Shown: in pieces, positions 27,086-54,111 of the stretch
Position numbering within the stretch: position 1 is the first letter of the stretch
Layout of the letters: every line of letters begins with the position of its first letter
Origin: Klebsiella phage Miami
Sequence record: MT701590.1
Length of the DNA stretch: 64,000 nt
Strand: one strand, 5' to 3'
Notes under the pieces: model-generated
What the model was told of the DNA's origin: nothing
The model's database searches: none
The model's input: only the letters and a program-made list of their open reading frames with translations
Made by a program: the position numbers and the translations under genes

Positions 27086-27340
27086 ATGCCTGTTACAGCA
27101 GTACTTGCCGCCACTGTTAATCTCACTACTCTGAAAGATAAGAGTTTGGAAAATGAGGTTCTCCAAACCATTAAAGAAAGAATGGCTTACGAGAAACCAG
27201 ACATTGAACTGACCTTATCTAAAGATGACAGTGTTGTTAACAGTTACACCTTTGTTAGTGGCGACGCTCTAACCGTTTCCGATGATTTCAGTTTTGTTTT
27301 TAACGGGATCGTCGCGGACGTAATCAGCAACGTTAACTGA
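27086..27340 (+). CDS. small protein (84 aa); possible fiber assembly factor
   Basis: AAGGAAAAAAT Shine-Dalgarno. Lies between fiber genes. Terminator follows. Confidence 0.4.
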   Translation: MPVTAVLAATVNLTTLKDKSLENEVLQTIKERMAYEKPDIELTLSKDDSVVNSYTFVSGDALTVSDDFSFVFNGIVADVISNVN

Positions 27341-27351
27341 GTAACCTAATA

Positions 27352-27395
27352 AGGTAGGGGAGGGCGTCAGCCCTCCCCTACCTAGTCGATTTTAT
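27352..27395 (+). terminator. intrinsic terminator-like hairpin
   Basis: Stem aggtaggggagggc / gccctcccctacct with loop gtca. Weak T-stretch. Confidence 0.5.
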
Positions 27396-27451
27396 GATTC
27401 AGGCTTAATATTCGTGGAGTGTGATACTCACTCCATCACGAGGTGAGATCA

Positions 27452-31066: not shown

Positions 31067-31072
31067 CCCTTT

Positions 31073-31105
31073 AAAAGGAGGGAGTTTCCCTCCTTTTATT
31101 TTCAT
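31073..31105 (+). terminator. intrinsic terminator
   Basis: Stem aaaaggaggga / tccctcctttt with loop gttt, followed by tattttc. Confidence 0.55.
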
Positions 31106-31114
31106 AGGTGTAAT

Positions 31115-34627: not shown

Positions 34628-34672
34628 TCGTTTTCACACGGGGGAGTAACCCTCCCCCTAAGAGGTCAGATA

Positions 34673-38922: not shown

Positions 38923-38972
38923 ACCCTGTCCCTTTATTTATAAGACTTTGTCATTTAAAAAATGGTTACTAT

Positions 38973-41447
38973 ATGATCGTTAAGCTGATATTAAAAGGTT
39001 ACATTCCTTTGAACACCAAAGGAGTAGAATATTTTGAAACGGATCAATTGGGCTTAATGAATATCCTGATTGGACGCAATGGGCATGGGAAGAGTTCCAT
39101 ACTCAACGAGGCGTCGCCGATGCCTCCTGAAAACGCCGACTATGTAGAAGATGGCTATAAATACGTCGAAATAATTAATAAGGGAAAACGGTATTATTTG
39201 GAATCTTTCACGGGATCAAAAAGCAAACACTCGTTTAAAGATTCAGAAGGTAACGAACTTAATTCAGGCGGTACCCAAGCGGTACAAAAAGAACTGGTTA
39301 AACAGTATTTTGACCTCACCCCGTTGTACTTTAAAGTTCTTACTGCAATCAACGAAAACTATCGTTTCACGGCATTAGGGGTGGCAGAAAGGAAGTTCCT
39401 CTTAATGGACCTCTACCCTAACGATACCAAATACGCGCTGATTGTCTATAACAAAATCAAATCGGCGTATAGCGATACCGTAGGGGCGTTAAAGAACCAA
39501 AGTCAGAGATTGATTGAGGAACAGCAACGCGTAAGTGCCTTAGGAGGAAAAACCAAAGAAGAACTTCTTCACGATATTTCTCAGCTCGATAAACGCATTA
39601 ACGAAATTGTTTACCTGCAAGGAGAACTCAACGGAACTGCTAACGTTAGCGGGGATCTTCGTTTAGAAATTGAGGATTTCAATAGCAAAGTAAAATCTCT
39701 GCTCGTGATGGGAATGACCACAGGGACACTGTCACGTCAACAGTTAATAGCGAGCATTGAGAGTTTAAAAGCCTCGTTGGTTTATCACGAAACCCAGCAG
39801 AAGATGTATCAGACACAACTCAATGATATTTCATCCGCGATGAGTGGGCTAGAGTTGAAGGACCACGACCCTAAACAATTTGAAACGCAACTGTTGGATC
39901 TCGAGTATCGTCATGCCGTACTCGAAACGGTATTGAACGACTCGGAAGAACTCATCAAACGAGAACCGTTTATATCTGAACACCGGGAACGGCTGATTAA
40001 CCTCGCTCCTGGTTTTAGAACCTTGATAGATCGGATAAACTTAATCCCCCTTTGTTCTAATCCAGAGTTAACCACGAGTCAGTACCAAAACTGGTTAGAT
40101 AAGTCCGAACAGATTTTTAACGAAGGTAAACAATCCAGGGTTGAGTTGGAACACGTCCAACATCAACTCAAACATTATCGTGATGCTTCGGAAGTCCAGT
40201 GTCCTGAATGCTCTTCTCAGTTTAAACCTGGGTTCGATAAGACCTACGAATCTAAATTGATTAAACAGGAAGATGGATTAAAATCGACCATCGCTCATCT
40301 AACGAGTAAGTATAAGCAATACAAACAAACCCTCGCTTTGGATCAAGAATGGTTCAGTCAAATGAGGGCTTTGGAACAGTACGTAGAAAGCAGTCATGAA
40401 GCGAAATTCTTGCTTCATCTGTTAAGCGAGTATAAGGTAGGTTATGAACCAGCCGATAGGCTCATAAACGTCATTAAAACGCTCACTACGACGCTGGATT
40501 ATAAGAAACAACAGGATGCCTTGACCGAAGAAATAAACGTCTTAAAAACCCGTATAAACGTGTTTAAAACGAATAATATGGAAGAGGCTCTGGCCGCGTA
40601 CTCACTCAGCGAAGAAAGGCTGGGTGATAGTAATCGTGCAATTCGTCGTTGTATGACGTTGATGAGGGAGCATCAGAAGACCTTAAAGGATTATGACGCT
40701 TACGAAATAACGATTGATGCGGTCAGAGAAGGTCAGGCAAGAATCCTTGATTTGTTACGGGATGAGGGTAAAGTCAGTTTGCATAGAAGACTCAACGAAG
40801 TAATGTCAAGTCTTCTCCCTCAGAAAGATGAAGTCATGTCTCTGATGATCAGACAGGAGTCGTTAAAGACTCTGGTCGGGTCTATCGAAGATAACATCGC
40901 GAACCTTAAGAAAAGACAATCTGATCTTAAGATCTTGATGGACGGACTCTGCCCTAAGAAAGGATACATCGGGGAATTGATGAAGGACTTTATTACCGCG
41001 ATTTGTGCGAACATGAACGCGGTAATACGGGACATATGGAGTACGCCTCTCTTTGTTAAACCGTGTGTTAATAAGAAAGGTGAAATGGATTATAACTTCC
41101 CAGTTATTAATGGCGACTCTAGCAGAACAGCTTCTGACGTGGCTAAATGTAGCGGGGGAGAAAAGGAGATTATTAACTTCGCATTTCGGTTAGTTGTCTC
41201 TCGGTACGTGAAATACGACAGTCCTCTTTTCTTGGACGAGGTTGGCGTTAACATGGACGAATACCATCGAGGTCGATTCTTTGATTATGTCAAGCGGCTG
41301 ATGGCGACGGGTAAGATTGATCAGTGTTTTATGATCAGTCATTACTCTTCACAGTATGGGCTCATGGACAATGCCAACATTATTGCTTTAAATACAGAAG
41401 GTTTAACGGTTCCCCCTAACGTCAATCTCAGTACAACGATAAGGTAA
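38973..41447 (+). CDS. Rad50/SbcC-family recombination ATPase (T4 gp46-like) with CxxC zinc hook
   Basis: Walker A ILIGRNGHGKSSIL near the N-terminus. Long coiled coil containing CPECSS (zinc hook). ABC signature KCSGGEKE. Walker B/D-loop LFLDEVGVNMDE. First in-frame ATG after the divergent gene. Confidence 0.8.
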   Translation: MIVKLILKGYIPLNTKGVEYFETDQLGLMNILIGRNGHGKSSILNEASPMPPENADYVEDGYKYVEIINKGKRYYLESFTGSKSKHSFKDSEGNELNSGGTQAVQKELVKQYFDLTPLYFKVLTAINENYRFTALGVAERKFLLMDLYPNDTKYALIVYNKIKSAYSDTVGALKNQSQRLIEEQQRVSALGGKTKEELLHDISQLDKRINEIVYLQGELNGTANVSGDLRLEIEDFNSKVKSLLVMGMTTGTLSRQQLIASIESLKASLVYHETQQKMYQTQLNDISSAMSGLELKDHDPKQFETQLLDLEYRHAVLETVLNDSEELIKREPFISEHRERLINLAPGFRTLIDRINLIPLCSNPELTTSQYQNWLDKSEQIFNEGKQSRVELEHVQHQLKHYRDASEVQCPECSSQFKPGFDKTYESKLIKQEDGLKSTIAHLTSKYKQYKQTLALDQEWFSQMRALEQYVESSHEAKFLLHLLSEYKVGYEPADRLINVIKTLTTTLDYKKQQDALTEEINVLKTRINVFKTNNMEEALAAYSLSEERLGDSNRAIRRCMTLMREHQKTLKDYDAYEITIDAVREGQARILDLLRDEGKVSLHRRLNEVMSSLLPQKDEVMSLMIRQESLKTLVGSIEDNIANLKKRQSDLKILMDGLCPKKGYIGELMKDFITAICANMNAVIRDIWSTPLFVKPCVNKKGEMDYNFPVINGDSSRTASDVAKCSGGEKEIINFAFRLVVSRYVKYDSPLFLDEVGVNMDEYHRGRFFDYVKRLMATGKIDQCFMISHYSSQYGLMDNANIIALNTEGLTVPPNVNLSTTIR

Positions 41448-41451
41448 TACC

Positions 41452-41736
41452 ATGTTGACCTTTACCACCACGGTGCGTAACAAAGCCGATAAGCTCGCAG
41501 CGGAACTCGATAAGGTTATCAGTAACTCATCGATAAACACCCGTAAAGCGACTTGGTTATTGCGTTACGCCAATGTCATTAACTACGCAAACGTCAATGG
41601 ATTAAAATTAGTTGAATTCAATACCAGAGCCGAAACTATTCGCAAATGGATAGCGACGGGGCATGTTTTCTTTGAGGGTAACAAAGCCATCTCTCTTGAA
41701 GAAATCGGTATGGATTTCAATACCGGTCGCCGGTAA
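41452..41736 (+). CDS. hypothetical protein (94 aa)
   Basis: ORF 4 nt after the Rad50-like stop. Hairpin plus T-run downstream (41767-41812). Confidence 0.4.
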   Translation: MLTFTTTVRNKADKLAAELDKVISNSSINTRKATWLLRYANVINYANVNGLKLVEFNTRAETIRKWIATGHVFFEGNKAISLEEIGMDFNTGRR

Positions 41737-41766
41737 AATAAGACAGATCTATATTATCTTAGAGAA

Positions 41767-41812
41767 CCGTGAAGGGTGTCTCATTTTCTCTTACACCCTT
41801 CACTTTTTACTA
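41767..41812 (+). terminator. intrinsic terminator
   Basis: Perfect 11-bp stem gtgaagggtgt / acacccttcac with a 13-nt loop, followed by tttttac. Confidence 0.55.
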
Positions 41813-41826
41813 CGAGGAAATAAAAA

Positions 41827-42495
41827 ATGAAGACCGCATTTGGTTTAATGTTCATTCTTATCATGGGGATAAGTAGCGCATTCGCATCAGTGAGTACATC
41901 TCAGTCGGATTACCACTATTTTAATAAACAGAAAACTTATATTTTCGAAGCATCCAAACTTACGGGGATCTCCCCTGAATTAGTTACCGCAATAGGTTCC
42001 ATTGAAAGTGGCCTGGGGCGTAATAAAGTTAATCGGTATTCTAAAGTCAAAGGTGTGATGCAAACCACCAAGCGGACTTATAACTCTAACCTTAAGAAAC
42101 ACCACGAAAGACTTGGGTTATCTCCTAACGCTTCTATCAAAAACGATAGAGCAAATATCTTAGTTGCTACCGCAGCATTAGCAGATAACAAACGTTACTT
42201 AGAGAAAGTCACGAATAAAAAAATCACAGATGGGGATGTGTTCATTTCTCATCTGGTAGGTTTAGGTGGCGCAGCTAAAATAATCAAAGGTAAACCCAAC
42301 GCCCCTATAAGCCGTTATATCACGCTTCATAAAGGTAACATGCGACTCTATACTGACAAAGGACGGGTATTGACCGTGGCGCAGTTTAGGAGGAATATGG
42401 ATCGGTTGGTAAAGAGAGAAAGCGCGAAGTATGCCGTGGTTATCAATCAGAACAAGTTGGATCGTTTGATAACAGCTGTCGCGTATAATCAATAA
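41827..42495 (+). CDS. lytic transglycosylase (SLT domain) with N-terminal signal peptide or signal-anchor; putative endolysin or virion-associated muralytic enzyme
   Basis: GAGGAAATAAAAA Shine-Dalgarno. N-terminus MKTAFGLMFILIMGISSAFASVS. Catalytic-region motif GSIESGLG...VKGVMQTT matches the family-1 ES-G-MQ pattern. Confidence 0.7.
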   Translation: MKTAFGLMFILIMGISSAFASVSTSQSDYHYFNKQKTYIFEASKLTGISPELVTAIGSIESGLGRNKVNRYSKVKGVMQTTKRTYNSNLKKHHERLGLSPNASIKNDRANILVATAALADNKRYLEKVTNKKITDGDVFISHLVGLGGAAKIIKGKPNAPISRYITLHKGNMRLYTDKGRVLTVAQFRRNMDRLVKRESAKYAVVINQNKLDRLITAVAYNQ

Positions 42496-44438: not shown

Positions 44439-44516
44439 ATTTAAACGATACCTACTATCTCTTGGGAAACCAAGAGATAGTAAAACCACTATTTTTGCAT
44501 TTAGGAAATTTTTACC

Positions 44517-46421
44517 ATGAGAGAGCAACTAGCTGAACAAATCAGGTATCATAATAAACGTTATTTTTTAGATAACGATCCGGAAATATCCGACGATCAA
44601 TACGACGAATTAAAACGGCAATACGACGCGTTGGGCGGTAATAAAAGTACTTCCCCCATCTTGTTAGACATGGAGGGGAGTGCTCTGCACAAGGTAGGGT
44701 TAGACATCCCCATGCTATCTTTATCTAAGAAATTGAACTTATCGGAATACGAAGCCTGGGAATCCGATTACGAAGATAAGGATAAATATCATTCTTACAA
44801 ACTGGACGGTCTGGCGATTGAAGCCTGTTACGAGTTTGGTTTGTTGACTAAACTCCGTACACGAGGAGATGGGTTAACTGGCGAAGATATCTTAGATAAT
44901 GCCGGGGTCTTCTCACCAGATCAACTCCCTTTAGAAAATCCAGCTTTAAAGGATTTCCACCGAGTTTGGTTACGAGGGGAAGGGTATGTCAGACTCGACG
45001 ATCTGGTTGTTATCAATGAGATCAACGCCAAGAGTTATCCCAATTGTCGTAGTGCGGCATCGGGCCTTATTCGTAGAAATCCAAAAGACAACGAAGATCT
45101 GGCAGGTAAGATTTCTTATAACGTTTATTGGTGCAGTGAACGTTTTGGTTTAGAGACTTACTCCGCCGTTATGGATAAACTCCGTGACTTCGGTTTCAGT
45201 ACTGCCCCGGAATGTCAGTATGAAGACATTGTCAATAATAACCGTCCCCCACTTCTTCCTACTGACGGAATCGTTTCCGTTATCGATAGTTTTTCTGATC
45301 AAGATGAATTGGGTTCGACTAATGAATACCCTCGCTGGGGCGTTGCTTATAAGTTCCCCCCAGAGCAAGCGGAAACCATTGCCGAAAACGTTTCGTGGGA
45401 AACGGGTAGAACAGGTCGGGTCACTCCTGTCCTCACCTATAAGGCGGTCACATTAGGTGGTAACACAAATACGGAATGTTCTTTGTTTAATTATCGTCAC
45501 TTCATCAAAACGGGTGTGCGTAAAGGGAGTCGGATTATCATTGCCCGTAACGGTGACGTCATTCCTTATTTCGTTAAGGTTGTGGAAGCCGGATTAGGGG
45601 ATGAGTTTAAAACCCCTAAAGTCTGTCCGTCGTGTTCGTCCATCCTGATGTACGAAGGGAAAGACGAGAAGAACATCTTCTTAACCTGTAAAAATACCGC
45701 GGATTGTCCAGCGCAGCATATCCAGCGATTCATTAATTTTGTCAGTCGTAAGGGATTGGATATCAAAGGTTACGGCGATAAGATGATGGAGAAACATGTC
45801 GGGGAAGGGAAAGTCAGCACGCTTTCTGACATTCTTAACTTAGGAGAAATCCTTTCAGGGGAGGGTTTGGATAGGAATACTGAGAAGGTTATTGAGAAAC
45901 TCAATAACTTAGGAAGTTACCCGGCATATAAGGTACTGGGTGCTTTGGGTATTCCTGGTGTCGCCGAAGGAACAGCTAAACTCATTACCGCTCAAGTCGG
46001 CAGTGTGGAAGATCTAATCGCTCTGCTTAAAGACGTTAAACGTTTGCTGGAGATTGAAGGTGTTGGAGTGAGTACCGTAAATGAGATCCAATCGTTTTTA
46101 AGTAACCCGGCTCTCCTTACGGATGTCGAAAACGTACTGAATAAACTCACGTTAACATTTGAAAAAGGGCAAGAACACGATATCAAAGTTTGCGTTACCG
46201 GGGGGTTATCCATTCCGAGAAAAGCAGCAGAAGAGAAGTTCAATCTTTCTGGGATTGAGTTACTGGACGGTGTAACTAAAAAGATGGATGTTCTCGTCTT
46301 CGCACCTGGAGGGAGCCAGGGTAAGAAGGATAAAGCTATCGCCATGAATAAAGTGGTTATAGAAGCAACCGACGTTCACACTGTAGAACAAATTATCGAT
46401 CAAATATTAACAGCCATTTAG
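44517..46421 (+). CDS. ligA: NAD-dependent DNA ligase (LigA family)
   Basis: Ia domain. Adenylation motif YKLDGLA (KxDG). OB domain. Four-Cys zinc finger CPSCSS...CKNTADCPAQ. Helix-hairpin-helix region. C-terminal BRCT (KVCVTGGLS...MDVLVFAPGG). Confidence 0.9.
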   Translation: MREQLAEQIRYHNKRYFLDNDPEISDDQYDELKRQYDALGGNKSTSPILLDMEGSALHKVGLDIPMLSLSKKLNLSEYEAWESDYEDKDKYHSYKLDGLAIEACYEFGLLTKLRTRGDGLTGEDILDNAGVFSPDQLPLENPALKDFHRVWLRGEGYVRLDDLVVINEINAKSYPNCRSAASGLIRRNPKDNEDLAGKISYNVYWCSERFGLETYSAVMDKLRDFGFSTAPECQYEDIVNNNRPPLLPTDGIVSVIDSFSDQDELGSTNEYPRWGVAYKFPPEQAETIAENVSWETGRTGRVTPVLTYKAVTLGGNTNTECSLFNYRHFIKTGVRKGSRIIIARNGDVIPYFVKVVEAGLGDEFKTPKVCPSCSSILMYEGKDEKNIFLTCKNTADCPAQHIQRFINFVSRKGLDIKGYGDKMMEKHVGEGKVSTLSDILNLGEILSGEGLDRNTEKVIEKLNNLGSYPAYKVLGALGIPGVAEGTAKLITAQVGSVEDLIALLKDVKRLLEIEGVGVSTVNEIQSFLSNPALLTDVENVLNKLTLTFEKGQEHDIKVCVTGGLSIPRKAAEEKFNLSGIELLDGVTKKMDVLVFAPGGSQGKKDKAIAMNKVVIEATDVHTVEQIIDQILTAI

Positions 46422-46431
46422 GAGAAAAGCA

Positions 46432-46758
46432 ATGCGAATTATTAAAATCGTAACTGTTTTTGTAGATGCGACTATGGAGGAGATCAAAGCGATCGTGAAA
46501 CAACACGTCGAGCGTAATTTATACGAAGATCATATCCTCGAATACAAAGAAGGTTCGGCCGTTTTCTTGGTTGCCGAAAACCAAGCCGGATTGGTTGCGA
46601 CCTCTTTGCAAGGCGCTTTCGATAATTCGGAATACACGCCTCGCTCTACGTTAACGGATACTGACAAGGGATTGATCGTATTGCGTTACACCAAACTCAC
46701 TGGGGACCTGCGCGCTTCTAACGGTACTCGTAATCAAGCCAAAGCCATGTTTAACTAA
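46432..46758 (+). CDS. hypothetical protein (108 aa)
   Basis: ORF with GGAGAAAAG Shine-Dalgarno. Confidence 0.4.
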   Translation: MRIIKIVTVFVDATMEEIKAIVKQHVERNLYEDHILEYKEGSAVFLVAENQAGLVATSLQGAFDNSEYTPRSTLTDTDKGLIVLRYTKLTGDLRASNGTRNQAKAMFN

Positions 46759-46773
46759 TCGGATATCAACAAA

Positions 46774-48054
46774 ATGACCAAAGAAACTAAAGCAGAAAAC
46801 AAATCTGACGTTATCTTTTTCGGAGATGAGAAAAAAGAGGCGGATGGATTTAAAGTTCGAGAGAAACAGATACAGGTTGCTAATCCTAAACGCGACTATC
46901 ATCTGATGATCGACGGAGAGGATAAAACTTCCGAATTAGTTGACGTGGATAAAGCGGGCATGGACGATTTCCAATTTCGGTTCGGATTCTTTATGTACAT
47001 CCGCGATAAAAACAAGAAGCTAAAAAGACTCTTTGAATACGGTTCTGCTGAGGGTTTGAAAGAGTTTACGTTTAAGCAATCTGATAAAGAATATCGGATC
47101 GTTTTAAGCAAGGGCTCCTCCGTGACACTTCAGACTAAATCTGGTGGCGGGATGTTCGATGAGGACTTCATGCCCATGGGAGAGGACGTCTCAGTGAACG
47201 ATTACCGATTACGTGATGCGTTCCACCCCTCTTTTAACCTTAAACCTGAGACAGGAAACAAAACTACTCTGGTAGTTCTTAACTCCACTGTTTCACTCAA
47301 ATATGTTTACGGGATTAATCTCGTTATCAATCAGGATATCACAGAAGGAACGCTGATATCCTCCTATGTTTACAATTCTCGGTATTCGGATTACCATAAG
47401 CTGGTTAACCCGACCATTGTGCGGTCAGAGATTGATGAAGGGTCGTTATCCGAATCACCTTATATTGTAAAAAGTGTTATTCGTGACTCCGGACTGAGAG
47501 GAAAGAGGGTTTCCGTCGTCAACTCTGTGTTTCTTAAAACCAGAATTAATGCCGAAGGTGGGATCACAGCAAGTAAAGTTAGTTTAGAAAACTCCAACAT
47601 CAGCTCCAGAAGTTCTAACGTAGATTTCGACGGGAGCTCTTTCAACGTTTACTCAGGCGTACAGCTTAATACGGTCGCCGGCGTTCTAATCAAACGTAAA
47701 GTAGATTTTTTAGAGTACTCCATCGGTGATGTCACTCTGATAGCGGTACGTAAAGGCGGGCTTTATCCTCGCACCTATGAATCCGACAAGGGTGTTGAAA
47801 TGATTATCTCGACACCTTATCGTTACGTCGATATTAGGGATGAAATTGTTGTTAGAGAGAAAGATTCCCGCAGTGAAATCACGGCTAAAGTAGCTAAGCT
47901 CATTTTCAATAGGGATACTGAACAGACTATTTATCAGGGTCCGTTCCAGAGTAACACTGTGGAGTCGACTATCGTTGAATCTTTCTCTGACGCCATTATG
48001 TCCCGTCTTCGTCTGTTGGGGATGATTGATACAGCTTTAAGTGTGGGGATTTAA
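46774..48054 (+). CDS. hypothetical protein (426 aa)
   Basis: Long ORF. No motif recognised. Confidence 0.45.
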   Translation: MTKETKAENKSDVIFFGDEKKEADGFKVREKQIQVANPKRDYHLMIDGEDKTSELVDVDKAGMDDFQFRFGFFMYIRDKNKKLKRLFEYGSAEGLKEFTFKQSDKEYRIVLSKGSSVTLQTKSGGGMFDEDFMPMGEDVSVNDYRLRDAFHPSFNLKPETGNKTTLVVLNSTVSLKYVYGINLVINQDITEGTLISSYVYNSRYSDYHKLVNPTIVRSEIDEGSLSESPYIVKSVIRDSGLRGKRVSVVNSVFLKTRINAEGGITASKVSLENSNISSRSSNVDFDGSSFNVYSGVQLNTVAGVLIKRKVDFLEYSIGDVTLIAVRKGGLYPRTYESDKGVEMIISTPYRYVDIRDEIVVREKDSRSEITAKVAKLIFNRDTEQTIYQGPFQSNTVESTIVESFSDAIMSRLRLLGMIDTALSVGI

Positions 48055-48057
48055 ACC

Positions 48058-48663
48058 ATGTTAAAAATTCGTTTCGAAGAATTAAAGACGTTTAACAAAC
48101 TCATTGTTAACGACTTTACCATTAAGGTCGATAAAGGCCACGAGAACCTTCCTGCTGAGCTTTACGAAGGTAAGACGCTCATCGCTACCATACCGACAAC
48201 AAAATCGTCCTCAGGCGTTCCTATTAAGCCTATGGGGTTATTCCCGTTCGTTACTTTAATGGCCATGGGTGGGGCTATTATCAGTCAACAGAAAGAAGGC
48301 GTCTTTGATAAACTCCAGGGTTTATCCGAAGAAATCTTTTCTCACGCGGTTCATCGTCAAACGATGGGGGAACAGTTCTGCGACGATCCTAAGAATCACA
48401 AGTACCTTCGTGTGTGCTTGGATAATGGGGCGTGGTCAACTGAGAAGGAAATCCAACCCGGTATTTTTGTGAATAACGAGTTTTACGTGTCGTCCAACGT
48501 TAATTCGAAAAATCAGCGTTTTATGAAGGTTATTTCTATAACCGACGTCGCCTCCCCTAATCGTAAAAATATCGTTAGGCAGGAACTCCGTCAGGTTTAC
48601 GTCTTCACTGTACCGTTTGGGGAATTCGGATTTAAACACGAATTGGTCCAGTCGATTAAATAA
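48058..48663 (+). CDS. hypothetical protein (201 aa)
   Basis: ORF 3 nt after the upstream stop. Hairpin downstream. Confidence 0.45.
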   Translation: MLKIRFEELKTFNKLIVNDFTIKVDKGHENLPAELYEGKTLIATIPTTKSSSGVPIKPMGLFPFVTLMAMGGAIISQQKEGVFDKLQGLSEEIFSHAVHRQTMGEQFCDDPKNHKYLRVCLDNGAWSTEKEIQPGIFVNNEFYVSSNVNSKNQRFMKVISITDVASPNRKNIVRQELRQVYVFTVPFGEFGFKHELVQSIK

Positions 48664-48715: not shown

Positions 48716-49237
48716 TTGGATCAAATTATTATCTACACCGACGGCAGTTGTCTTGAGAATAGCGCGGCCGGAGGACCGGGAGGATGGGCGTACATTATCG
48801 TAGGCAAGGATGAAAAATATTCGATAGAGCAAAACAAAGGTTATTTTAAAACCACAAATAACCGAATGGAAATGATGGCGTGTTTAGAAGCGTTATTGGA
48901 GTTCGATTACCCGAAAAGAATTATCATTCATACCGATAGCCAATATCTCATCGACGGGATGACCAAATGGATTTACGGTTGGAGAAAAAGGAATTGGGTG
49001 ACGGGTTACGGAGAAGCAGTTAAAAACAAAGACCTTTGGCAGGCGTTGATTGACGCAAGCAAATTTCATAAAGTCACCTACGTGAAAGTTAAAGCACACA
49101 ACGGCGATAAGTATAATGAACGTTGCGATGTTCTCGCTAAAGAAGCGGCGAGAAATCCAGAACTCGACGACGTAGGTTTCGTCCCCGTACACAACCCACC
49201 CAAAATTAAATATCCTTATTACTTTAGGAAAAGATAA
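48716..49237 (+). CDS. rnhA: ribonuclease HI
   Basis: IYTDGSC...GGWAY...TNNRMEMMACLEAL...HTDSQYL...W...VKAHNG matches the RNase HI DEDD catalytic core. TTG start preceded by GAGGA. Confidence 0.85.
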   Translation: MDQIIIYTDGSCLENSAAGGPGGWAYIIVGKDEKYSIEQNKGYFKTTNNRMEMMACLEALLEFDYPKRIIIHTDSQYLIDGMTKWIYGWRKRNWVTGYGEAVKNKDLWQALIDASKFHKVTYVKVKAHNGDKYNERCDVLAKEAARNPELDDVGFVPVHNPPKIKYPYYFRKR

Positions 49238-49239: not shown

Positions 49240-50580
49240 ATGGTTTCAATTGATGATGTGCAGAAAAAACTCACTGCTTATTTTGACGACCGTTTAATCG
49301 GACAACCTGAATTAGTAGAGGGTATTGTAACCAATATCAAACTACGAGAAATCTACCATAACAATTTAGCCTTTGCTAAAGAAACTGGGATTTATATCCC
49401 CCCTTTAAATATGCTGGTTAGGGGGAAATCTGGCAACGGTAAAAGTCATTCGATTAACTTTATTTGTCGATCTTTGGGATTACCTTTCGTCAGCGTCAAC
49501 GCCACGGATTTTACTTCTTCCGGTTACGTTGGCGCTTCGTTGTCAGATATTCCTAAAATGCTGATCGATGAAGCGGAAAGGATTCTTAAAGAGAAAGATC
49601 AAATTAAGGGTGGGTTCGACGTTCCCCCTCCTACACAGGACGATAAAGATATTGAGGAAGCCGACAATCGTTTTAAAGCGATAGAAAAAGAATTAATCGA
49701 CTTGGGCGTTCGTATGGATAAAATGGGCCCTAAGCGACCTGCCTTCGCCCACTCTATACGTTTGTATGAAAAGGGGATACCGTACAGAATCAGACTTTGT
49801 TTCCGTAACAAAACACCTAAGAAACTTTATGCCGAATTAACCGAAGGGAAGGAATTTACGGATAAAGAGAGGACTAAGATTAATAGTCTTTTAAACAAGC
49901 TATCCACCCCATATAAACCCTACTCGTTTAAATTCGATACAAGTTTCATTGATAAGTTCAGGTTAGGTGGAATAAAAGATTCTAATCCTGGAGTCAAAGA
50001 GTATGCCCAAAATAAGGGCATCGTTATGATCGATGAGATCGATAAAATCCTTATGGGTAAGAACGGACAATACAACGTTGGCACTCACGGAATCATTAGG
50101 GAGATTTTAGCGTATCTGTCCGGATCGAACATTATGTGCGGAGGGGATATGTTTGATACGTCAAACATCATCTTTATCTGTGCTGGCGCTTTTGACATGG
50201 TTGACTTTAAAGACATCCCCACCGAACTCTTAGGTCGGCTCCCTACACGTTTAACTGTTAAGGACCCTACTGAAGATAGTCTTTACCGGATGCTGACTTC
50301 CCAGGTAGTCGACCCGTGGGGTATGGTCAAACTCATTCTTCGTAATAAAGGATGTGAGAATTTTATCATTAGTGATGAAATCTCTAGGCATATCGCCAAA
50401 CGTGTTATTGAGGACGAAAAGATCAAACCCATTGGGGTCAGACGTTTAATGGCCGTGATTAGCGAAATAGCTAAAATCTATTATCTCATGGACGAGATAG
50501 ATAAAGAGATAACTTTATCAGAGTTCGTAGCGGATAAAGCACTTAAAACGATTAGAGACGGTTTATTAGAATCGGTTTAA
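49240..50580 (+). CDS. HslU-like AAA+ unfoldase (ClpX/HslU family) with a divergent intermediate domain of about 190 aa
   Basis: IGQ motif. Walker A LVRGKSGNGKSH followed by PFVSVNATDFTSSGYVG (HslU: PFIKVEATKFTEVGYVG). Walker B IVMIDEIDKI. Sensor NIIFICAGAF. LLGRLPTRL (HslU: LQGRLPIRV). Confidence 0.85.
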   Translation: MVSIDDVQKKLTAYFDDRLIGQPELVEGIVTNIKLREIYHNNLAFAKETGIYIPPLNMLVRGKSGNGKSHSINFICRSLGLPFVSVNATDFTSSGYVGASLSDIPKMLIDEAERILKEKDQIKGGFDVPPPTQDDKDIEEADNRFKAIEKELIDLGVRMDKMGPKRPAFAHSIRLYEKGIPYRIRLCFRNKTPKKLYAELTEGKEFTDKERTKINSLLNKLSTPYKPYSFKFDTSFIDKFRLGGIKDSNPGVKEYAQNKGIVMIDEIDKILMGKNGQYNVGTHGIIREILAYLSGSNIMCGGDMFDTSNIIFICAGAFDMVDFKDIPTELLGRLPTRLTVKDPTEDSLYRMLTSQVVDPWGMVKLILRNKGCENFIISDEISRHIAKRVIEDEKIKPIGVRRLMAVISEIAKIYYLMDEIDKEITLSEFVADKALKTIRDGLLESV

Positions 50581-50584
50581 ACTT

Positions 50585-50612
50585 ATATCCTGGGCGGATC
50601 CGCCCAGGATAT
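50585..50612. repeat. perfect 28-nt palindrome centred on GGATCC (terminator-like hairpin)
   Basis: atatcctgggcggatccgcccaggatat is its own reverse complement. Lies after the HslU-like gene with only a weak T-stretch. Confidence 0.5.
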
Positions 50613-50643
50613 AATCTGTTAATTTAACTTTTGGAAACTCATC

Positions 50644-51162
50644 ATGCTTTTAGACGAATGGGCCAGAGAGTTTAACGTTCTACTACCACGGGAGGGTAAA
50701 ATGGATTTTATCGATTATCTTAAAGTACATGAAAGGACCATCGATTTATGTTTTTTAGGGGTTTTTATTATTTTGTTGGGAGCGTTAGGATTTTTCCTAA
50801 TGAAAATTAGAATTGACCTCGACAAAGAATATAAAAAGTATATGGACAGACGCGATTTTAAACTGGTTCAATCTATTCGTTTTTATTTGGCCTTTAAAGA
50901 ACCTCCGTCGGAATGCGACCGGACTAAACTCCTTATAAAGAATGAAAAAGAGCTTCTTATCGTGCTAGACCATTTTTTGAGAAAAGACGTTGTGTTACGC
51001 AAGAAGCTTAGGTTTAAAAGGCTCGGGGTTAAATTGTCAGACGGCAATTTCGAGATAAAAATCAAATCAATTTTTAGAACAAACCAATATGTGTTGGTCG
51101 CGGATTCCTCAAAGTTATTAATCTTCTTAGGTCTATTACTGGAGAAAAATAAAAATGGTTGA
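50644..51162 (+). CDS. membrane protein (172 aa), AT-rich gene
   Basis: One transmembrane segment (LCFLGVFIILLGALGFFLM). Lys-rich. Composition differs from the neighbouring genes. Confidence 0.4.
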   Translation: MLLDEWAREFNVLLPREGKMDFIDYLKVHERTIDLCFLGVFIILLGALGFFLMKIRIDLDKEYKKYMDRRDFKLVQSIRFYLAFKEPPSECDRTKLLIKNEKELLIVLDHFLRKDVVLRKKLRFKRLGVKLSDGNFEIKIKSIFRTNQYVLVADSSKLLIFLGLLLEKNKNG

Positions 51163-51541
51163 ATTGTCGTTAGTCTCTATCATTTTTGGAATTGGGTTAG
51201 GTATACTGCTGACTCTTTTTTGGATTAAATTTTTAAAGGGAGTGCTGGAGAAGAAAGAAGCTGAAAGGAAACTTAAAGAGGAAATAGATGAAAAATCTAA
51301 GGAGTTGGATTTACTGGTGTCTAAATTAAGAAAAGAGGTTCGTAGTCTTGATGAGTTACTTAACCATCCGGACTTCGCCGAACTGTACAGTTTTCTTAAA
51401 TGTTCGATAATAGTAAGGTCCGACGCCCTTTTCATTATTTCGCCGTATTGGAGTAATACCAAAGAATGCTTTGAACATATTCCGATTCATTTAAAGCGGG
51501 TTGACCGGATCTCCTCGCGCATTTTAGGCGAACTTATCTAA
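51155..51541 (+). CDS. membrane-anchored coiled-coil protein (128 aa), AT-rich gene
   Basis: N-terminal transmembrane segment (LSLVSIIFGIGLGILLTLFWI) followed by KEAERKLKEEIDEKSKELDLLVSKLRKEVRSLDELL. Confidence 0.4.
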   Translation: MVELSLVSIIFGIGLGILLTLFWIKFLKGVLEKKEAERKLKEEIDEKSKELDLLVSKLRKEVRSLDELLNHPDFAELYSFLKCSIIVRSDALFIISPYWSNTKECFEHIPIHLKRVDRISSRILGELI

Positions 51542-51577
51542 GTTCGATTTCTAAAACATACACTCATTAGGCAAATT

Positions 51578-51817
51578 ATGAAACTCGAAGACTATCAGCA
51601 TCACGTTTCCATCGTCCAACACGAAGATGGAAAGGAACTCCCCTATTTCAAACAAAAGACTTACTGTGGCGCTAAACCAGAACCTTGGATGTTTCAAGGG
51701 GCTGGACACGCCATACTGGCGATTTCTAATCAAAGCTACACACAACCCTGCCCGGAATGTATTAAAGCCATACAGGCGATTACAGAAGGGTATTTAAAGG
51801 AAAATTCCAATGACTAA
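51578..51817 (+). CDS. small Cys-containing protein (79 aa)
   Basis: YCGAKPEPW...QPCPECIKAI could form a zinc ribbon. Confidence 0.35.
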   Translation: MKLEDYQHHVSIVQHEDGKELPYFKQKTYCGAKPEPWMFQGAGHAILAISNQSYTQPCPECIKAIQAITEGYLKENSND

Positions 51818-52703
51818 AAGTTGCGGTAAAAACGTTCTTTCAGCAAAACAGGTCAAGAAAAATCTCGAACATTTACACGACACCCACCTAGTCAAATTAG
51901 GGGCGGTGTCCGACCAACTATTCAGCGTGCAATCTTTAAAAGCCTCATTATCTCGATTATTTGAAGCGGGTGAGTTGGGTGAAGTTATTGCCGACCCGGA
52001 TTATTTTAATGACGGGGTTTGTTTGGATCGTGATACCATTGAGTTTAAGAACCTCTGCGGGTTTATGGTGTCTGATTGCTTTTTCGATCTTGACGATGGC
52101 TTTTTCCATATTGGGTGTAAAGTAAGGTTTTTAAATAGCTTTAATGTCAGAACTGAAGACGAAATAGAATTCATTCCTAGGGTTTTGTTCGATGGCCAGG
52201 GAAGACCTAAGATCGTCGCATTTGATGTTAAGATTCATCCATTTATCGACGCTATAACCGAAGCAGTTAAAAGCCATTCTTACGGTTACACCCATGTCAA
52301 GAACTTCCTGTCCCAAACCGATTCCAACACACATACTTTAATACTAGGTTATTTTGATAAAAATAAAATCGCCCCTATCGAGCTCGAGAGAGTGTTGTCT
52401 CGCCTTTCCTTAAGTGGGGCGCCTATAGGGGAAGGTTCTAGACCGCCTACCGGAAGATCTAAGAAGAGATGGAGGACAGTAGATCATAATAATTCGCTTG
52501 GGCGAGTTATTTCATATGCGATAAATGACCATAGCGAAGACGCTTATTTTGTGGCGGGCGTTATTGAATTGAACTTGAATAATCCTCTAGTACTAGAGAC
52601 CTTTAAACAAGGGGCATTAACTATCGCCCCCAGAGTTTCTATGAATGTGGATATCTTTTCTTCCTGCACGGAACTTATCTGCTTTGATCTCATTCAGGAA
52701 TAA
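51810..52703 (+). CDS. hypothetical protein (297 aa)
   Basis: ORF overlapping the upstream stop. Confidence 0.45.
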   Translation: MTKSCGKNVLSAKQVKKNLEHLHDTHLVKLGAVSDQLFSVQSLKASLSRLFEAGELGEVIADPDYFNDGVCLDRDTIEFKNLCGFMVSDCFFDLDDGFFHIGCKVRFLNSFNVRTEDEIEFIPRVLFDGQGRPKIVAFDVKIHPFIDAITEAVKSHSYGYTHVKNFLSQTDSNTHTLILGYFDKNKIAPIELERVLSRLSLSGAPIGEGSRPPTGRSKKRWRTVDHNNSLGRVISYAINDHSEDAYFVAGVIELNLNNPLVLETFKQGALTIAPRVSMNVDIFSSCTELICFDLIQE

Positions 52704-52706
52704 GTT

Positions 52707-52811
52707 ATGGCTAAATCCAAAATGTCCGACTTTATTGATATTGCCGTGCTGTTCCTGGTAATATCTCTCGTCTTAACCTTTTTCTTTTACGCTATTATTA
52801 AATATGGATAA
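52707..52811 (+). CDS. small hydrophobic peptide (34 aa), below the cutoff of the ORF track
   Basis: ATG 3 nt after the upstream stop. Sequence MAKSKMSDFIDIAVLFLVISLVLTFFFYAIIKYG has a single transmembrane helix. Overlaps the next start. Confidence 0.3.
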   Translation: MAKSKMSDFIDIAVLFLVISLVLTFFFYAIIKYG

Positions 52812-53154
52812 AACTACTATGTTTGACCTTATTAAGCTTCTCGAGATCTTCCTGGGATTCTTTATTTGTATTCTGCTGATCGTTCTGCTCATCATAACGG
52901 TACGGAAAAACAAATACCCTCAACTACCGCCCACCCATGAAACGATACGTTACATCATCTCTGGGGCTCTCCAGACGAAGAAATACGACACGCCTGATCT
53001 TTATACCTATCTCGGTATAAAACTCTCTAAAGAGTATGGAGAGTTCTTAAACATAAAGATAGAGTACGATCTATTATCCCCTCCCGGGCAAGTAACCTTT
53101 TACATAAAGGATTATAGGCTTAAACGAGTTTACCCGCTAACCTTTAACGCATAA
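52804..53154 (+). CDS. membrane protein (116 aa)
   Basis: Transmembrane segment FLGFFICILLIVLLIITV. Strong terminator follows. Confidence 0.4.
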   Translation: MDKTTMFDLIKLLEIFLGFFICILLIVLLIITVRKNKYPQLPPTHETIRYIISGALQTKKYDTPDLYTYLGIKLSKEYGEFLNIKIEYDLLSPPGQVTFYIKDYRLKRVYPLTFNA

Positions 53155-53164
53155 AACATAGTCC

Positions 53165-53218
53165 TACTCCTACTCCCGTAATAGGGAGTAGGAGTACTCT
53201 TATGAATTTATTTTTAAT
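53165..53218 (+). terminator. intrinsic terminator
   Basis: Stem tactcctactccc / gggagtaggagta with loop gtaat, followed by a T-rich run. Confidence 0.55.
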
Positions 53219-53530
53219 TAATTAATGTTAAACCTAGGATAGTATAGTATAAATAGCTCTAGCGTAATATATTAGGCCTTCGGCCTAAAGGGCTAGGGTA
53301 AGTCAATTCGTTCGTTTCAGCATCAATCAAGGTATTCGCTACGCTCATACTTTCTTATGCTTACACTCACCCATGCAACCTGGAGAGAAACCCCGACTGA
53401 ACAAAGTTGTTTATTCCTTCTCAGGGGAATAAACAGTTCGTCGGCTAAAGACATAGGATGTTTTATGATCAGTAAAGAAATACGATAATCTAAACTTATT
53501 AGTTCAAACACTGTAATCTAGGAGATAACC

Positions 53531-53647
53531 ATGAATATCGTAATGCCATTAAAGTTACTCGGAGGGTTACTTATCCTGGGGGTGAGTTTTGGATTACTGG
53601 TTTATCTCATTGTTAAACTCTCCGTTAAAATGGCGTATAAAAAATGA
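53531..53647 (+). CDS. small transmembrane peptide (38 aa), below the cutoff of the ORF track
   Basis: AGGAGATAACC Shine-Dalgarno. Sequence MNIVMPLKLLGGLLILGVSFGLLVYLIVKLSVKMAYKK. Stop overlaps the next start (ATGA). Confidence 0.35.
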   Translation: MNIVMPLKLLGGLLILGVSFGLLVYLIVKLSVKMAYKK

Positions 53648-54111
53648 GTGAAGAAGAGCTGTCATTAGGTTATATTTCGGTTAAAGTCATTCCCACTCAG
53701 GAAGGGATTCTTAAAGATAAGGTGTTGGATGCAGGCTGTCTTCCGTTAGATGAAGGGTCGTACCACGCTACGCTTATTTTTGATATTCATCAGGATGGTG
53801 TCATTCCCAACGTACCTATGATTCCTGAAAAGATCTTCGAGGGAAAGGTTATTGGAATCAAGGAACTCGGAGAGCGTAAAGGAGATATTATCTCAGCCGT
53901 TGTACTCGAACTGGATTCTCCTGAACTGATAGAAGAACACGATCGGTTAATACAATGTGGGTATGGTCATTCCTATCCGGATTACATCCCCCATATTTCG
54001 CTCGCTTACAAGGTCACAGAAGAGCAAATGGAAGATCTCAAACGACAGTGTGAGTCGCTTATTGGTAAAACGTTCTACTTATCCGGAGAAAGCATCGACT
54101 GGATAGATTAA
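53644..54111 (+). CDS. 2H-phosphoesterase superfamily protein; Acb1-like candidate anti-CBASS nuclease
   Basis: Two HxT/S motifs at the spacing expected for the 2H fold: YH41-A-T43LIF and PH117-I-S119LAY. About 155 aa, similar to T4 Acb1 (about 152 aa). Confidence 0.5.
   Translation: MSEEELSLGYISVKVIPTQEGILKDKVLDAGCLPLDEGSYHATLIFDIHQDGVIPNVPMIPEKIFEGKVIGIKELGERKGDIISAVVLELDSPELIEEHDRLIQCGYGHSYPDYIPHISLAYKVTEEQMEDLKRQCESLIGKTFYLSGESIDWID

What the first reader, a model, noticed from the sequence alone, without database searches (positions are those of the whole stretch)
49240..50580. Orphan HslU-like AAA+ unfoldase without an HslV partner in the window
Clear HslU signatures: IGQ, Walker A followed by PF..V.AT.FT..GYVG, Walker B IDEIDKI, sensor FICAGAF and GRLPxR. 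The intermediate (I) domain is a different, lower-complexity insert of about 190 aa. No HslV-like (Thr1 Ntn) or ClpP gene is nearby. A phage HslU could hijack host HslV or ClpP to redirect proteolysis, for instance against host or defence proteins, or act as a standalone remodelling chaperone.
Basis: partly seen in the sequence, partly recalled or inferred. Interest (0 to 1): 0.6.

Follow-up and report, generated by a model that had tools for sequence, protein, structure and literature searches.

The report
Partner-less HslU-like unfoldase, nucleus-forming phage
A jumbo Klebsiella phage of the nucleus-forming kind encodes an intact protein-unfolding motor related to bacterial HslU that has lost the parts needed to dock onto a protease and has no protease partner in the genome, so it most likely works alone as a remodelling machine, probably on DNA-bound proteins inside the phage nucleus.

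Summary
The ORF (49240..50580, +, 446 aa) and every quoted motif are real. It is an HslU-fold AAA+ ATPase with all catalytic residues intact: TIGR00390 E 3e-33, and the top 50 PDB fold matches are all HslU. It is 100% identical to the 'ATP-dependent protease' of Klebsiella phage Miami.

Corrections: the insert is about 136-145 aa, not 190, and is not low-complexity.

The orphan status holds genome-wide. A 95%-identical complete relative has no HslV or ClpP by tblastn, phmmer or Pfam; its only peptidase is the phiKZ-type prohead protease.

It is not a bona fide HslU:
- It scores 115 bits against a cut-off of 362.
- Its I-domain is basic, where cellular ones are acidic.
- It has no ClpP-docking IGF loop.

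The phage is a chimallin-encoding (nucleus-forming) jumbo phage. The homologous gp116 of Erwinia phage RAY localises with phage DNA inside the nucleus. The gene is the last in a LigA to RNase HI block, and this linkage recurs in distant relatives.

Best reading: a stand-alone unfoldase or remodeller acting in the phage nucleus. Hijacking of host HslV or ClpP is disfavoured. This is a new variant of a known kind, of moderate interest.

The parts
49240..50580 (+). HslU-like AAA+ ATPase gene (446 aa), 100% identical to Klebsiella phage Miami 'ATP-dependent protease' A0A873WCQ0
49423..49446 (+). Walker A / P-loop GKSGNGKS (aa 62-69; K68 invariant)
49522..49533 (+). Pore-1 loop GYVG (aa 95-98), invariant across phage clade and cellular HslU
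49594..50001 (+). I-domain-type insert (aa ~119-254, 136 aa) at the HslU-specific site between the pore-loop helix and the Walker B strand. It is basic (pI 9.4, net +7) and fast-evolving, with only G156 and P224 invariant in the clade.
50020..50046 (+). Walker B IVMIDEIDK (aa 261-269; D265/E266 invariant)
50206..50208 (+). F323, the position equivalent to E. coli HslU Pro315 in the HslV-facing loop. The proline is lost (F or H throughout the clade).
50224..50238 (+). E329...R333 (ELLGR), equivalent to E. coli HslU E321 and the R325 arginine finger; invariant
50434..50448 (+). Sensor-2 GVRRL (aa 399-403; R401 is equivalent to E. coli R393)
50551..50577 (+). C-terminus IRDGLLESV (aa 438-446). 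This is a clade-specific conserved motif, IR-x-(S/G)-L-x-(D/E)-(F/SV), in place of the HslV-docking EDL(S/T)R(F/Y)IL tail.
48716..49237 (+). RNase HI gene. Its stop codon is 2 nt before the HslU-like ATG, and the Shine-Dalgarno-like AGGA lies inside its 3' end, so the two genes are probably co-translated.
44517..46421 (+). NAD-dependent DNA ligase LigA, first gene of the putative six-gene unit
46432..48663 (+). Three ORFs of unknown function (108, 426 and 201 aa) between LigA and RNase HI. None has a Pfam or PHROG family, and none resembles a peptidase.
44451..44484 (.). Strong palindromic hairpin (15 bp stem) just upstream of LigA; the left boundary of the putative transcription unit
50583..50614 (+). 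Strong hairpin (14 bp stem, 7 G-C pairs, 4-nt loop) starting 3 nt after the HslU-like stop codon. It is terminator-like or an RNA-stability element and marks the right boundary of the unit.
38883..42495 (+). SbcC-like nuclease subunit and an SLT transglycosylase-domain gene. In distant clade members (L038, L040) these two genes lie immediately upstream of the HslU-like gene.

Best explanation
The gene encodes a catalytically competent HslU-family AAA+ motor that is presumed to form a hexamer. It has been uncoupled from proteolysis and works on its own, using ATP to unfold or pull apart proteins through its GYVG pore.

It is an accessory gene of nucleus-forming (chimallin-encoding) jumbo phages. 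It is expressed as the last gene of a DNA ligase to RNase HI unit. By homology with Erwinia phage RAY gp116, it most likely acts inside the phage nucleus.

There, its basic I-domain would recognise DNA- or RNA-associated or acidic clients, such as replication, recombination or repair complexes and misfolded imported proteins. This would supply remodelling or quality-control activity in a compartment that host chaperones and proteases cannot enter.

Shown here:
- the fold
- intact catalytic residues
- loss of the HslV and ClpP coupling elements
- absence of a partner peptidase in the genome of a close relative
- chimallivirus identity of the phage
- the conserved gene linkage
- the charge inversion of the I-domain

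Inferred, not shown:
- hexamer formation
- nuclear localisation of this particular protein
- the identity of its clients
For: **Fold and active site.** TIGR00390 E 3e-33. PDB HslU E 8.5e-26. AF2 model pLDDT 78, with the top 50 Foldseek PDB hits all HslU. K68, GYVG, D265/E266, E329, R333 and R401 are invariant in the alignments.

**No coupling elements.**
- The C-terminus is GLLESV rather than EDLSRFIL.
- 0 of 15 clade members end in aromatic-I-L, against 95 of 161 other HslU-like proteins.
- Pro315 is replaced by F or H. The count is 0 of 21 Pro in the two phage clades against 86 of 94 in tail-bearing HslU. Tail and Pro315 co-vary, Fisher p 3e-13.
- These are the two determinants defined experimentally in PMC4106860.
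- There is no [ILVM]GF loop.

**No partner.**
- tblastn with HslV at E<=1 hits none of the five relatives.
- phmmer --max with HslV, CodW and ClpP seeds against all ORFs of the window and the complete phiKp_32 genome gives best E about 2.
- A Pfam scan of 121 ORFs of 130-300 aa finds only Peptidase_S80.
- No peptidase domain occurs in any neighbourhood of distant members.
- Positive control: the same seed finds an adjacent ClpP in three other viral loci.

**Chimallivirus identity.**
- PhuZ, split RNAP subunits, the gp250 helicase and the DNA polymerase lie in RAY order.
- The chimallin homolog matches phage EL nuclear shell protein at E 7e-87 and PDB PhuN at 1.8e-4.
- phiKZ_IP, PhiKZ_VTX and S80 are present.

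**Nuclear localisation of a homolog.** RAY gp116-GFP co-localises with phage DNA (PMC10299810). The gp116 ortholog is the best viral structural neighbour after self. It is also the NJ sister clade.

**Basic I-domain.** 11 of 11 window-clade and 9 of 10 RAY-clade inserts are basic, against 16 of 93 tail-bearing HslU.

**Linkage to DNA-metabolism genes.** The linkage to LigA, RNase H, SbcC and PhoH recurs in four lineages. The unit is bracketed by hairpins.
Against: - No experiment exists on this protein.
- Orthology with RAY gp116 is weak: about 31% identity over the two AAA+ halves only, the insert cannot be aligned, and tree distances are saturated at about 1.7. The sister grouping could therefore be long-branch attraction.
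- The two phages belong to different chimallivirus branches, so localisation may not transfer.
- The clade keeps its own conserved C-terminal motif (IRxSLxDF), so the terminus is under selection and could dock onto something not recognised here.
- A basic I-domain also occurs in 17% of tail-bearing HslUs, so charge alone is not diagnostic.
- The Pfam scan covered only ORFs of 130-300 aa in a 95%-identical relative, not the window's own complete genome.
- Gene linkage in phage genomes is weak evidence of function.
Confidence: 0.55

Rival explanations
1. Hijack of a host peptidase. The phage ATPase caps host HslV, or ClpP, and redirects proteolysis against host or defence proteins.
For: - It has a true HslU fold with an I-domain at the HslU site.
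- The C-terminal helix is about as long as in HslU and keeps the invariant Leu (L442, equivalent to E. coli L438).
- Enterobacterial hosts carry HslV.
Against: - The tail lacks the aromatic-I-L terminus, and Pro315 is lost. Both are required or co-evolving determinants of HslV activation (PMC4106860).
- There is no IGF loop for ClpP.
- The I-domain charge is inverted relative to cellular HslU.
- The homolog RAY gp116 is nuclear, away from cytoplasmic host peptidases.
- It scores 115 bits against the 362-bit equivalog cut-off.
Confidence: 0.1
2. It partners with an unrecognised phage-encoded peptidase. This could be a novel fold or one of the unknown ORFs in the same unit. The clade-specific C-terminal motif would serve as the docking element.
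For: - The C-terminal motif IR-x-(S/G)-L-x-(D/E)-(F/SV) is conserved across about 40% sequence identity.
- Most of the genome is 'hypothetical'.
- Three ORFs with no assigned family lie in the same unit.
Against: - None of the unknown neighbours is conserved next to the gene in distant members. Only SbcC, SLT, LigA, RNase H and the Acb1-like gene are shared.
- No peptidase family other than the prohead protease S80 was found.
- No Thr1-type N-terminus is evident in the 201-aa neighbour.
Confidence: 0.12
3. It is a motor of traffic across the chimallin shell. An unfoldase on the inner face would thread imported proteins into the phage nucleus, or strip proteins from exported mRNA.
For: [quoted passage not shown]
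- The homolog is nuclear.
- The pore loop and ATPase site are intact.
- The I-domain is basic.
Against: - It is an accessory gene, not a core gene.
- It is absent from phiKZ, PhiPA3, 201phi2-1 and Goslar, which import proteins without it.
- RAY gp116 was described as co-localising with DNA, not as a shell-peripheral ring.
- It is not among the genetically identified import factors discussed.
Confidence: 0.06
4. It is a decaying or non-catalytic relic of a captured hslU gene.
For: - It has lost its partner and its docking elements.
- The insert evolves fast.
Against: - All ATPase and pore residues are invariant across a clade that has diverged to about 38% identity.
- The ORF is full-length in all five isolated relatives at 79-98% identity.
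- The start is tightly coupled to the upstream gene, and a hairpin follows the stop codon.
Confidence: 0.03

Closest known systems
Bacterial HslU (ClpY), the ATPase of the HslUV protease (E. coli, H. influenzae; PDB 1g3i, 1do0, 5ji3)
   Same: - Same fold: Foldseek E about 1e-16, TM about 0.6-0.7.
- Same AAA+ HslU/ClpX-clade motifs: Walker A and B, GYVG, E321/R325 and R393 equivalents.
- Same overall length, and an insert of about 135 aa at the same topological site.
   Different: - About 22-26% identity, and 115 bits against the 362-bit TIGR00390 cut-off.
- No EDLSRFIL tail and no Pro315.
- A basic rather than acidic I-domain with no sequence similarity.
- No hslV in the genome.
Erwinia phage RAY gp116 and its orthologs (Ea35-70, MadMel, AH06; weaker relatives in SPN3US-like Salmonella phages, Machina/Wellington/Derbicus, CR5), the 'HslUV-family' accessory protein of chimalliviruses
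   Same: - A phage-encoded HslU-like protein in a chimallin-encoding jumbo phage.
- Tail-less, Pro315 lost (V), basic I-domain, and no HslV partner.
- Best viral structural neighbour (E 1.3e-16) and NJ sister clade.
- RAY gp116 was shown to co-localise with phage DNA in the nucleus (PMC10299810).
   Different: - 569 aa against 446 aa, with an insert of about 219 aa that cannot be aligned and a long C-terminal extension.
- Only about 31% identity over the AAA+ halves.
- Different genomic neighbourhood: thymidine kinase, MazG and DHFR rather than LigA and RNase H.
- A different chimallivirus branch: RAY/Agricanvirus against EL/RisingSun-like.
ClpX
   Same: - Sister AAA+ family.
- The N-terminal half aligns at E about 1e-11, and it has the GYVG pore loop.
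- ClpX has well-known protease-independent remodelling activity on DNA-bound complexes, such as MuA transpososome disassembly (established knowledge). This is the functional analogy proposed here.
   Different: - No zinc-binding N-domain (no PF06689 hit) and no IGF loop.
- ClpX has no insert at the I-domain site, only 2 residues.
- Much weaker score: 55 bits against 115 for HslU.
Viral ClpX/HslU-like ATPases that keep a partner (IMG/VR loci L023, L027, L031)
   Same: Phage-encoded AAA+ unfoldases of the same superfamily.
   Different: Those loci carry a ClpP gene immediately next to the ATPase. This clade never does.

Membership tests
HslU (ATPase subunit of the HslUV protease; NCBIfam TIGR00390 equivalog) | Scores above the curated equivalog cut-off | tested here: not met
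   115.4 bits against a cut-off of 362.45
HslU (ATPase subunit of the HslUV protease; NCBIfam TIGR00390 equivalog) | AAA+ HslU/ClpX-clade fold with Walker A and B, GYVG pore loop, arginine finger and sensor-2 | tested here: met
   All of these residues are invariant in the alignments. The top 50 Foldseek PDB hits are HslU.
HslU (ATPase subunit of the HslUV protease; NCBIfam TIGR00390 equivalog) | I-domain inserted between the pore-loop helix and the Walker B strand | tested here: met
   A 136-aa insert lies at that site, against 131-148 aa in cellular HslU and 2 aa in ClpX. It has no sequence similarity, however, and its charge is opposite.
HslU (ATPase subunit of the HslUV protease; NCBIfam TIGR00390 equivalog) | C-terminal HslV-docking and activating tail (EDLSRFIL type, with an aromatic residue third from the end) | tested here: not met
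   The protein ends in ...IRDGLLESV, and the residue third from the end is E444. 0 of 15 clade members have an aromatic-I-L terminus, against 95 of 161 others. The requirement is documented in PMC4106860.
HslU (ATPase subunit of the HslUV protease; NCBIfam TIGR00390 equivalog) | Conserved Pro315 in the HslV-facing loop | tested here: not met
   The window protein has F323. The clade has F or H. 86 of 94 tail-bearing HslUs have Pro.
HslU (ATPase subunit of the HslUV protease; NCBIfam TIGR00390 equivalog) | A cognate hslV gene in the same operon or genome | tested here: not met
   None in the window. None in the complete 251-kb phiKp_32 genome or the four other relatives. None near distant clade members.
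HslU (ATPase subunit of the HslUV protease; NCBIfam TIGR00390 equivalog) | Forms hexamers that stimulate HslV peptidase activity | not testable with these tools
   This needs biochemistry or multimer modelling.
ClpX | N-terminal C4 zinc-binding domain | tested here: not met
   No PF06689 hit. The AAA+ module starts at about residue 10.
ClpX | IGF loop for ClpP docking | tested here: not met
   The protein has no [ILVM]GF motif.
ClpX | Scores above the curated equivalog cut-off | tested here: not met
   55 bits against 359, and 40.5 bits against 370.75
Chimallivirus tail-less HslU-like accessory ATPases (RAY gp116 group; PHROG phrog_4339) | Encoded by a chimallin-encoding jumbo phage | tested here: met
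   The relative's genome has chimallin (E 7e-87 to the EL shell protein), PhuZ, split RNAPs, the gp250 helicase and the S80 protease.
Chimallivirus tail-less HslU-like accessory ATPases (RAY gp116 group; PHROG phrog_4339) | Sequence or profile membership | tested here: met
   - phrog_4339, E 1.3e-40, 141 bits
- MadMel ortholog, Foldseek E 1.3e-16
- NJ sister clades, with weak support because distances are saturated
Chimallivirus tail-less HslU-like accessory ATPases (RAY gp116 group; PHROG phrog_4339) | Shared derived characters: no HslV tail, no Pro315, basic I-domain | tested here: met
Chimallivirus tail-less HslU-like accessory ATPases (RAY gp116 group; PHROG phrog_4339) | Localises inside the phage nucleus | not testable with these tools
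   This has been shown only for RAY gp116 (PMC10299810).

The most novel reading that the evidence does not exclude
The tail-less, basic-I-domain HslU-like ATPases of chimalliviruses are dedicated unfoldases of the phage nucleus, a protease-free proteostasis and remodelling system for a compartment sealed off from host chaperones. In the strongest form, they are the ATP-driven motor that threads proteins or ribonucleoprotein cargo across the chimallin lattice in the enterobacterial and EL-like branches. That would give a first energy source for phage-nucleus transport.
Probability: 0.07. Interest if true: 0.85.

Novelty: new variant of a known kind. Interest (0 to 1): 0.45.

Why it matters
Nucleus-forming phages wall off their DNA from host enzymes. 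What provides protein unfolding, quality control or transport energy inside that compartment is an open question.

An intact AAA+ unfoldase has shed every protease-coupling element. It is co-expressed with DNA ligase and RNase H, and its homolog is known to be nuclear. That makes it a concrete, testable candidate for such a role.

The finding also shows that the database labels 'HslU' and 'ATP-dependent protease' on these phage genes are misleading. They imply proteolysis, and neither the protein nor the genome has the means for it.

The criteria used here are tail, Pro315 and I-domain charge. They give a simple way to separate protease-coupled HslUs from stand-alone HslU-like proteins in any genome.

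Tried and rejected
- **RAY chimallin query.** tblastn of RAY chimallin against the relative's genome gave nothing. This first looked like 'not a chimallivirus'. Synteny, a PDB PhuN hit and a search with the syntenic ORF itself then showed a clear EL-type chimallin, so that reading was rejected.
- **Literature searches by relative name.** Searches for phiKp_32, KPN8, BUCTxx100 and VB_ZK_P1 returned only unrelated papers.
- **IMG/VR scan.** The scan with the clade alignment found no close members, only 25-37% identical ClpX/HslU-likes. It was useful only as a positive control for ClpP detection.
- **Pseudomonas hits.** These first suggested a phiKZ homolog, but they are PA5oct-type ClpX-like genes.
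- **Tail regex.** A strict tail regex under-counted canonical tails and was replaced by the aromatic-I-L criterion.
- **First tree script.** It timed out and was redone with a faster distance calculation.
- **Sigma-70 promoter scan.** It is uninformative: 21 sites found against 19.6 expected. These phages also use their own RNA polymerases.
- **Low-complexity insert.** Rejected on entropy.
- **Fold search of the I-domain alone.** Considered and not run, because its pLDDT is too low in places (40-62) to give meaningful matches.
- **The 201-aa ORF as a cryptic peptidase.** The ORF at 48058..48663 has no Pfam or PHROG family, no Thr1-type N-terminus, and is not conserved next to the gene in distant members.
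Full report
**Observation.** The ORF at 49240..50580 (+) is real: ATG to TAA, 446 aa. The similarity is far beyond chance. Pfam gives AAA and AAA_2. NCBIfam hslU gives E 3e-33, against ClpX at 6e-15. Solved HslU chains give E about 1e-25 in two stretches that flank an unaligned insert. An AlphaFold2 model (pLDDT 78.4, pTM 0.66) returns HslU structures as all 50 top Foldseek PDB hits (E about 1e-16, TM 0.55-0.78).

Two details need correcting. The insert is about 136-145 aa (aa ~114-258), the same size as cellular I-domains (131-148 aa), not about 190 aa. It is also not low in complexity, at 3.97 against 4.07 bits.

**What genome this is.** The region is 88-96% identical to five jumbo phages of about 252-257 kb: Klebsiella phiKp_32, YC1 and KPN8, 'Stenotrophomonas' BUCTxx100, and Raoultella VB_ZK_P1. 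In these the gene is annotated 'hslU', 'ATP-dependent protease' or 'hypothetical'. The protein is 100% identical over 446 aa to 'ATP-dependent protease' A0A873WCQ0 of Klebsiella phage Miami. The genome announcement for Miami (253,383 bp, 300 genes, 47 with an assigned function) does not discuss the gene (PMC7844079).

I assembled the complete phiKp_32 genome (251,460 bp). The window maps to positions 66-127 kb of it at about 95% identity. That genome carries homologs of Erwinia phage RAY's PhuZ tubulin, DNA polymerase, three split RNA-polymerase subunits, the core gp250 helicase and SbcD, all in the RAY gene order. The ORF in the syntenic chimallin position matches the solved PhiPA3 PhuN (E 1.8e-4). 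It is also 34% identical over 87% of its length to the phage EL nuclear shell protein (E 7e-87), with many further 'nuclear shell protein' or 'chimallin' records matching. Pfam adds Peptidase_S80, phiKZ_IP and PhiKZ_VTX. The phage is therefore a chimallin-encoding jumbo phage of the EL/RisingSun/Aphroditevirus branch. This agrees with Prichard et al., who use Miami as 'a distant relative of RAY'.

**Is it really an orphan?** Yes, and genome-wide.
- tblastn with E. coli HslV at E<=1 hits none of the five relatives.
- phmmer --max with HslV, CodW and ClpP seeds, run against all six-frame ORFs of the window and the complete relative, gives nothing better than E about 2 and under 5 bits.
- A Pfam scan of all 121 ORFs of 130-300 aa in that genome finds no Proteasome or CLP_protease family. 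Its only peptidase is the phiKZ gp175-type prohead protease S80.
- No peptidase domain occurs within 10 kb of distant clade members.
- As a positive control, the same ClpP seed finds ClpP right next to the ATPase in three other viral loci.

**Is it an HslU?** It has the fold and the topology, but it fails the features that define an HslV-coupled HslU.
- It scores 115 bits against the 362-bit equivalog cut-off.
- Cellular HslUs end in EDL(S/T)R(F/Y)IL, whereas this protein ends in IRDGLLESV. Its relatives end in IRNSLSDF, IRMSLEDF and similar, a motif conserved within the clade but different from the HslU tail.
- None of 15 clade members has an aromatic-I-L terminus, against 95 of 161 other retrieved HslU-like proteins.
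- Sung & Song showed that the octapeptide EDLSRFIL activates HslV, and that Phe441 and Pro315 are strictly conserved and co-evolve (PMC4106860). Here the Pro315 position is F323.
- Across 169 sequences, Pro occupies that column in 86 of 94 tail-bearing proteins, in 30 of 75 tail-less proteins, and in 0 of 21 members of the two phage clades. Fisher p is 3e-13, not corrected for phylogeny.
- There is no IGF-type loop and no ClpX zinc domain.

All ATPase and pore residues are nevertheless invariant: K68, GYVG, D265/E266, E329/R333 and R401. The motor is intact; only the coupling to a protease is gone.

**The family.** An exhaustive phmmer run over 1.84 billion representatives finds only 8 proteins at E<=1e-30. 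The word-indexed search gives 12 clusters and then a gap from 1e-74 to 1e-25. One distant member sits in a 228.7-kb contig. Weaker homologs occur in other enterobacterial chimalliviruses: RAY/Ea35-70/Agricanvirus, SPN3US-like Salmonella phages, Machina/Wellington/Derbicus/Phobos, and CR5. They do not occur in phiKZ, PhiPA3, 201phi2-1 or Goslar, and the Pseudomonas hits are PA5oct ClpX-likes. In a ClpX-rooted NJ tree, the window clade (11 leaves) is sister to the RAY gp116 clade (10 leaves), and all 21 are tail-less. Distances are saturated at about 1.7, so this grouping is only suggestive. The gp116 ortholog of phage MadMel is, however, the best viral structural neighbour after self, and both clades share the same derived characters.

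**Clues to function.**
1. RAY gp116-GFP co-localises with phage DNA inside the phage nucleus, and it is classed as an accessory gene (PMC10299810).
2. The I-domain, which recognises substrates in HslU, is basic in 11 of 11 window-clade and 9 of 10 RAY-clade proteins (pI 7.8-9.6). It is acidic in 67 of 93 tail-bearing HslUs and basic in only 16. The charge is retained even though only two insert positions are invariant in the clade.
3. The gene starts 2 nt after the RNase HI stop codon. It is the last gene of a block made up of LigA, ORFs of 108, 426 and 201 aa, RNase HI and the HslU-like gene. The block is bracketed by 15-bp and 14-bp hairpins at 44451..44484 and 50583..50614.
4. The linkage recurs in distant members. 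One contig has SbcC, SLT, HslU-like..., LigA, 102-aa and 467-aa ORFs, and RNase H. Another has SbcC, SLT and HslU-like. Two more have RNase H 7-9 kb upstream and PhoH immediately downstream.

**Best explanation (confidence about 0.55).** This is a stand-alone, protease-free AAA+ unfoldase or remodeller. It probably acts inside the phage nucleus on DNA- or RNA-associated or acidic clients, much as ClpX acts without a protease on DNA-bound complexes. It would supply an activity that host chaperones and proteases cannot provide in that compartment. Fold, active site, loss of coupling elements, absence of a partner, phage type, linkage and charge inversion are shown here. Hexamer formation, localisation of this particular protein and its clients are inferred.

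**Rivals.**
- Hijack of host HslV or ClpP, about 0.10. Against it are the missing tail, Pro315 and IGF loop, and the nuclear homolog.
- An unrecognised phage peptidase docking on the clade-specific C-terminal motif, about 0.12. No conserved candidate neighbour exists.
- A motor for traffic across the shell, about 0.06. [quoted passage not shown] The gene is accessory, however, and is missing from the model phages that import proteins.
- An inactive relic, about 0.03. The invariant catalytic residues contradict this.

**Novelty and verdict.** The gene is already annotated as HslU-like in public records, and a homolog has been localised. The basic observation is therefore not new. What is new here:
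- the demonstration that these phage proteins are a distinct, tail-less, Pro315-less, basic-I-domain variant
- the absence of any peptidase partner in the genome
- the conserved linkage to DNA-metabolism genes

This is a new variant of a known kind. Interest is moderate (0.45). It bears on an open question about proteostasis and transport in the phage nucleus, but the most exciting reading has low probability.

Noticed in passing
window 53644..54111 (+): This 155-aa ORF is 32% identical (E 3.6e-19) to a gene in contig L038 that carries Pfam Acb1, the anti-CBASS protein. The phiKp_32 ORF set that includes its counterpart gives Acb1 at 2.8e-13. It is a likely anti-CBASS phosphodiesterase about 3 kb downstream of the HslU-like gene.
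   Followed up: partly
window 50662..53360, against phiKp_32 117963..121138 (L001 22645..25733): The segment directly downstream of the HslU-like gene is a variable spot. The window carries a 297-aa ORF (51810..52703) with no family. phiKp_32 lacks that ORF and instead has an IS200/IS605 TnpB insertion, with a second TnpB copy elsewhere in the genome.
   Followed up: partly
window 24269..37888 (+): Four consecutive very large ORFs (935, 1207, 1170 and 1071 aa) share an N-terminal module (phrog_2163, a virion structural protein). Three also share phrog_3573. They look like a tandem paralogous array of tail-fibre or virion proteins with swapped C-terminal parts.
   Followed up: no
Klebsiella phages phi1_175008, KP13-26, KP2025, FKP3 (about 142-150 kb; hits H79-H83): This is the converse orphan. 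These unrelated Klebsiella phages carry a gene annotated 'HslV family peptidase' (29% identity to E. coli HslV, E about 0.4), and no HslU-like hit was seen for them. The pSal-SNUABM-04 paper similarly reports HslV-like ORFs without HslU (PMC7823757), while my tblastn finds an HslU-like fragment in that phage annotated 'putative DnaA protein' (H63).
   Followed up: no
L006/L007/L008 (bacterial contigs encoding P0014): A cellular HslU with a near-canonical tail (DLSSYIL) sits between a phosphoribosyltransferase and DprA. No HslV-sized Proteasome-family gene is next to it; only an 88-100 aa ORF with no family overlaps its start. This may be a split or relocated hslV in that bacterium.
   Followed up: no
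P0123 (1238 aa; exhaustive search): A 1238-residue protein matches the query in 8 separate stretches (E 2.2e-40). This suggests a tandemly repeated or multi-module HslU-like AAA+ protein.
   Followed up: no
OR529409.1 'Stenotrophomonas phage BUCTxx100': This is the closest relative in the phage collection (95.5% DNA identity, 97.8% protein identity). It is recorded with a Stenotrophomonas host, while all its near-identical relatives infect Klebsiella or Raoultella. The host assignment may be questionable, or the host range may be unusually broad.
   Followed up: no
window 41827..42495 (+), and L038 1362..2030, L040 1390..2121: An SLT lytic-transglycosylase-domain protein (phrog_4067) is embedded in the DNA-metabolism block, between SbcC and the ligase or HslU-like genes. 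It is conserved there at about 50% identity in distant contigs. That is an odd location for a cell-wall enzyme.
   Followed up: no
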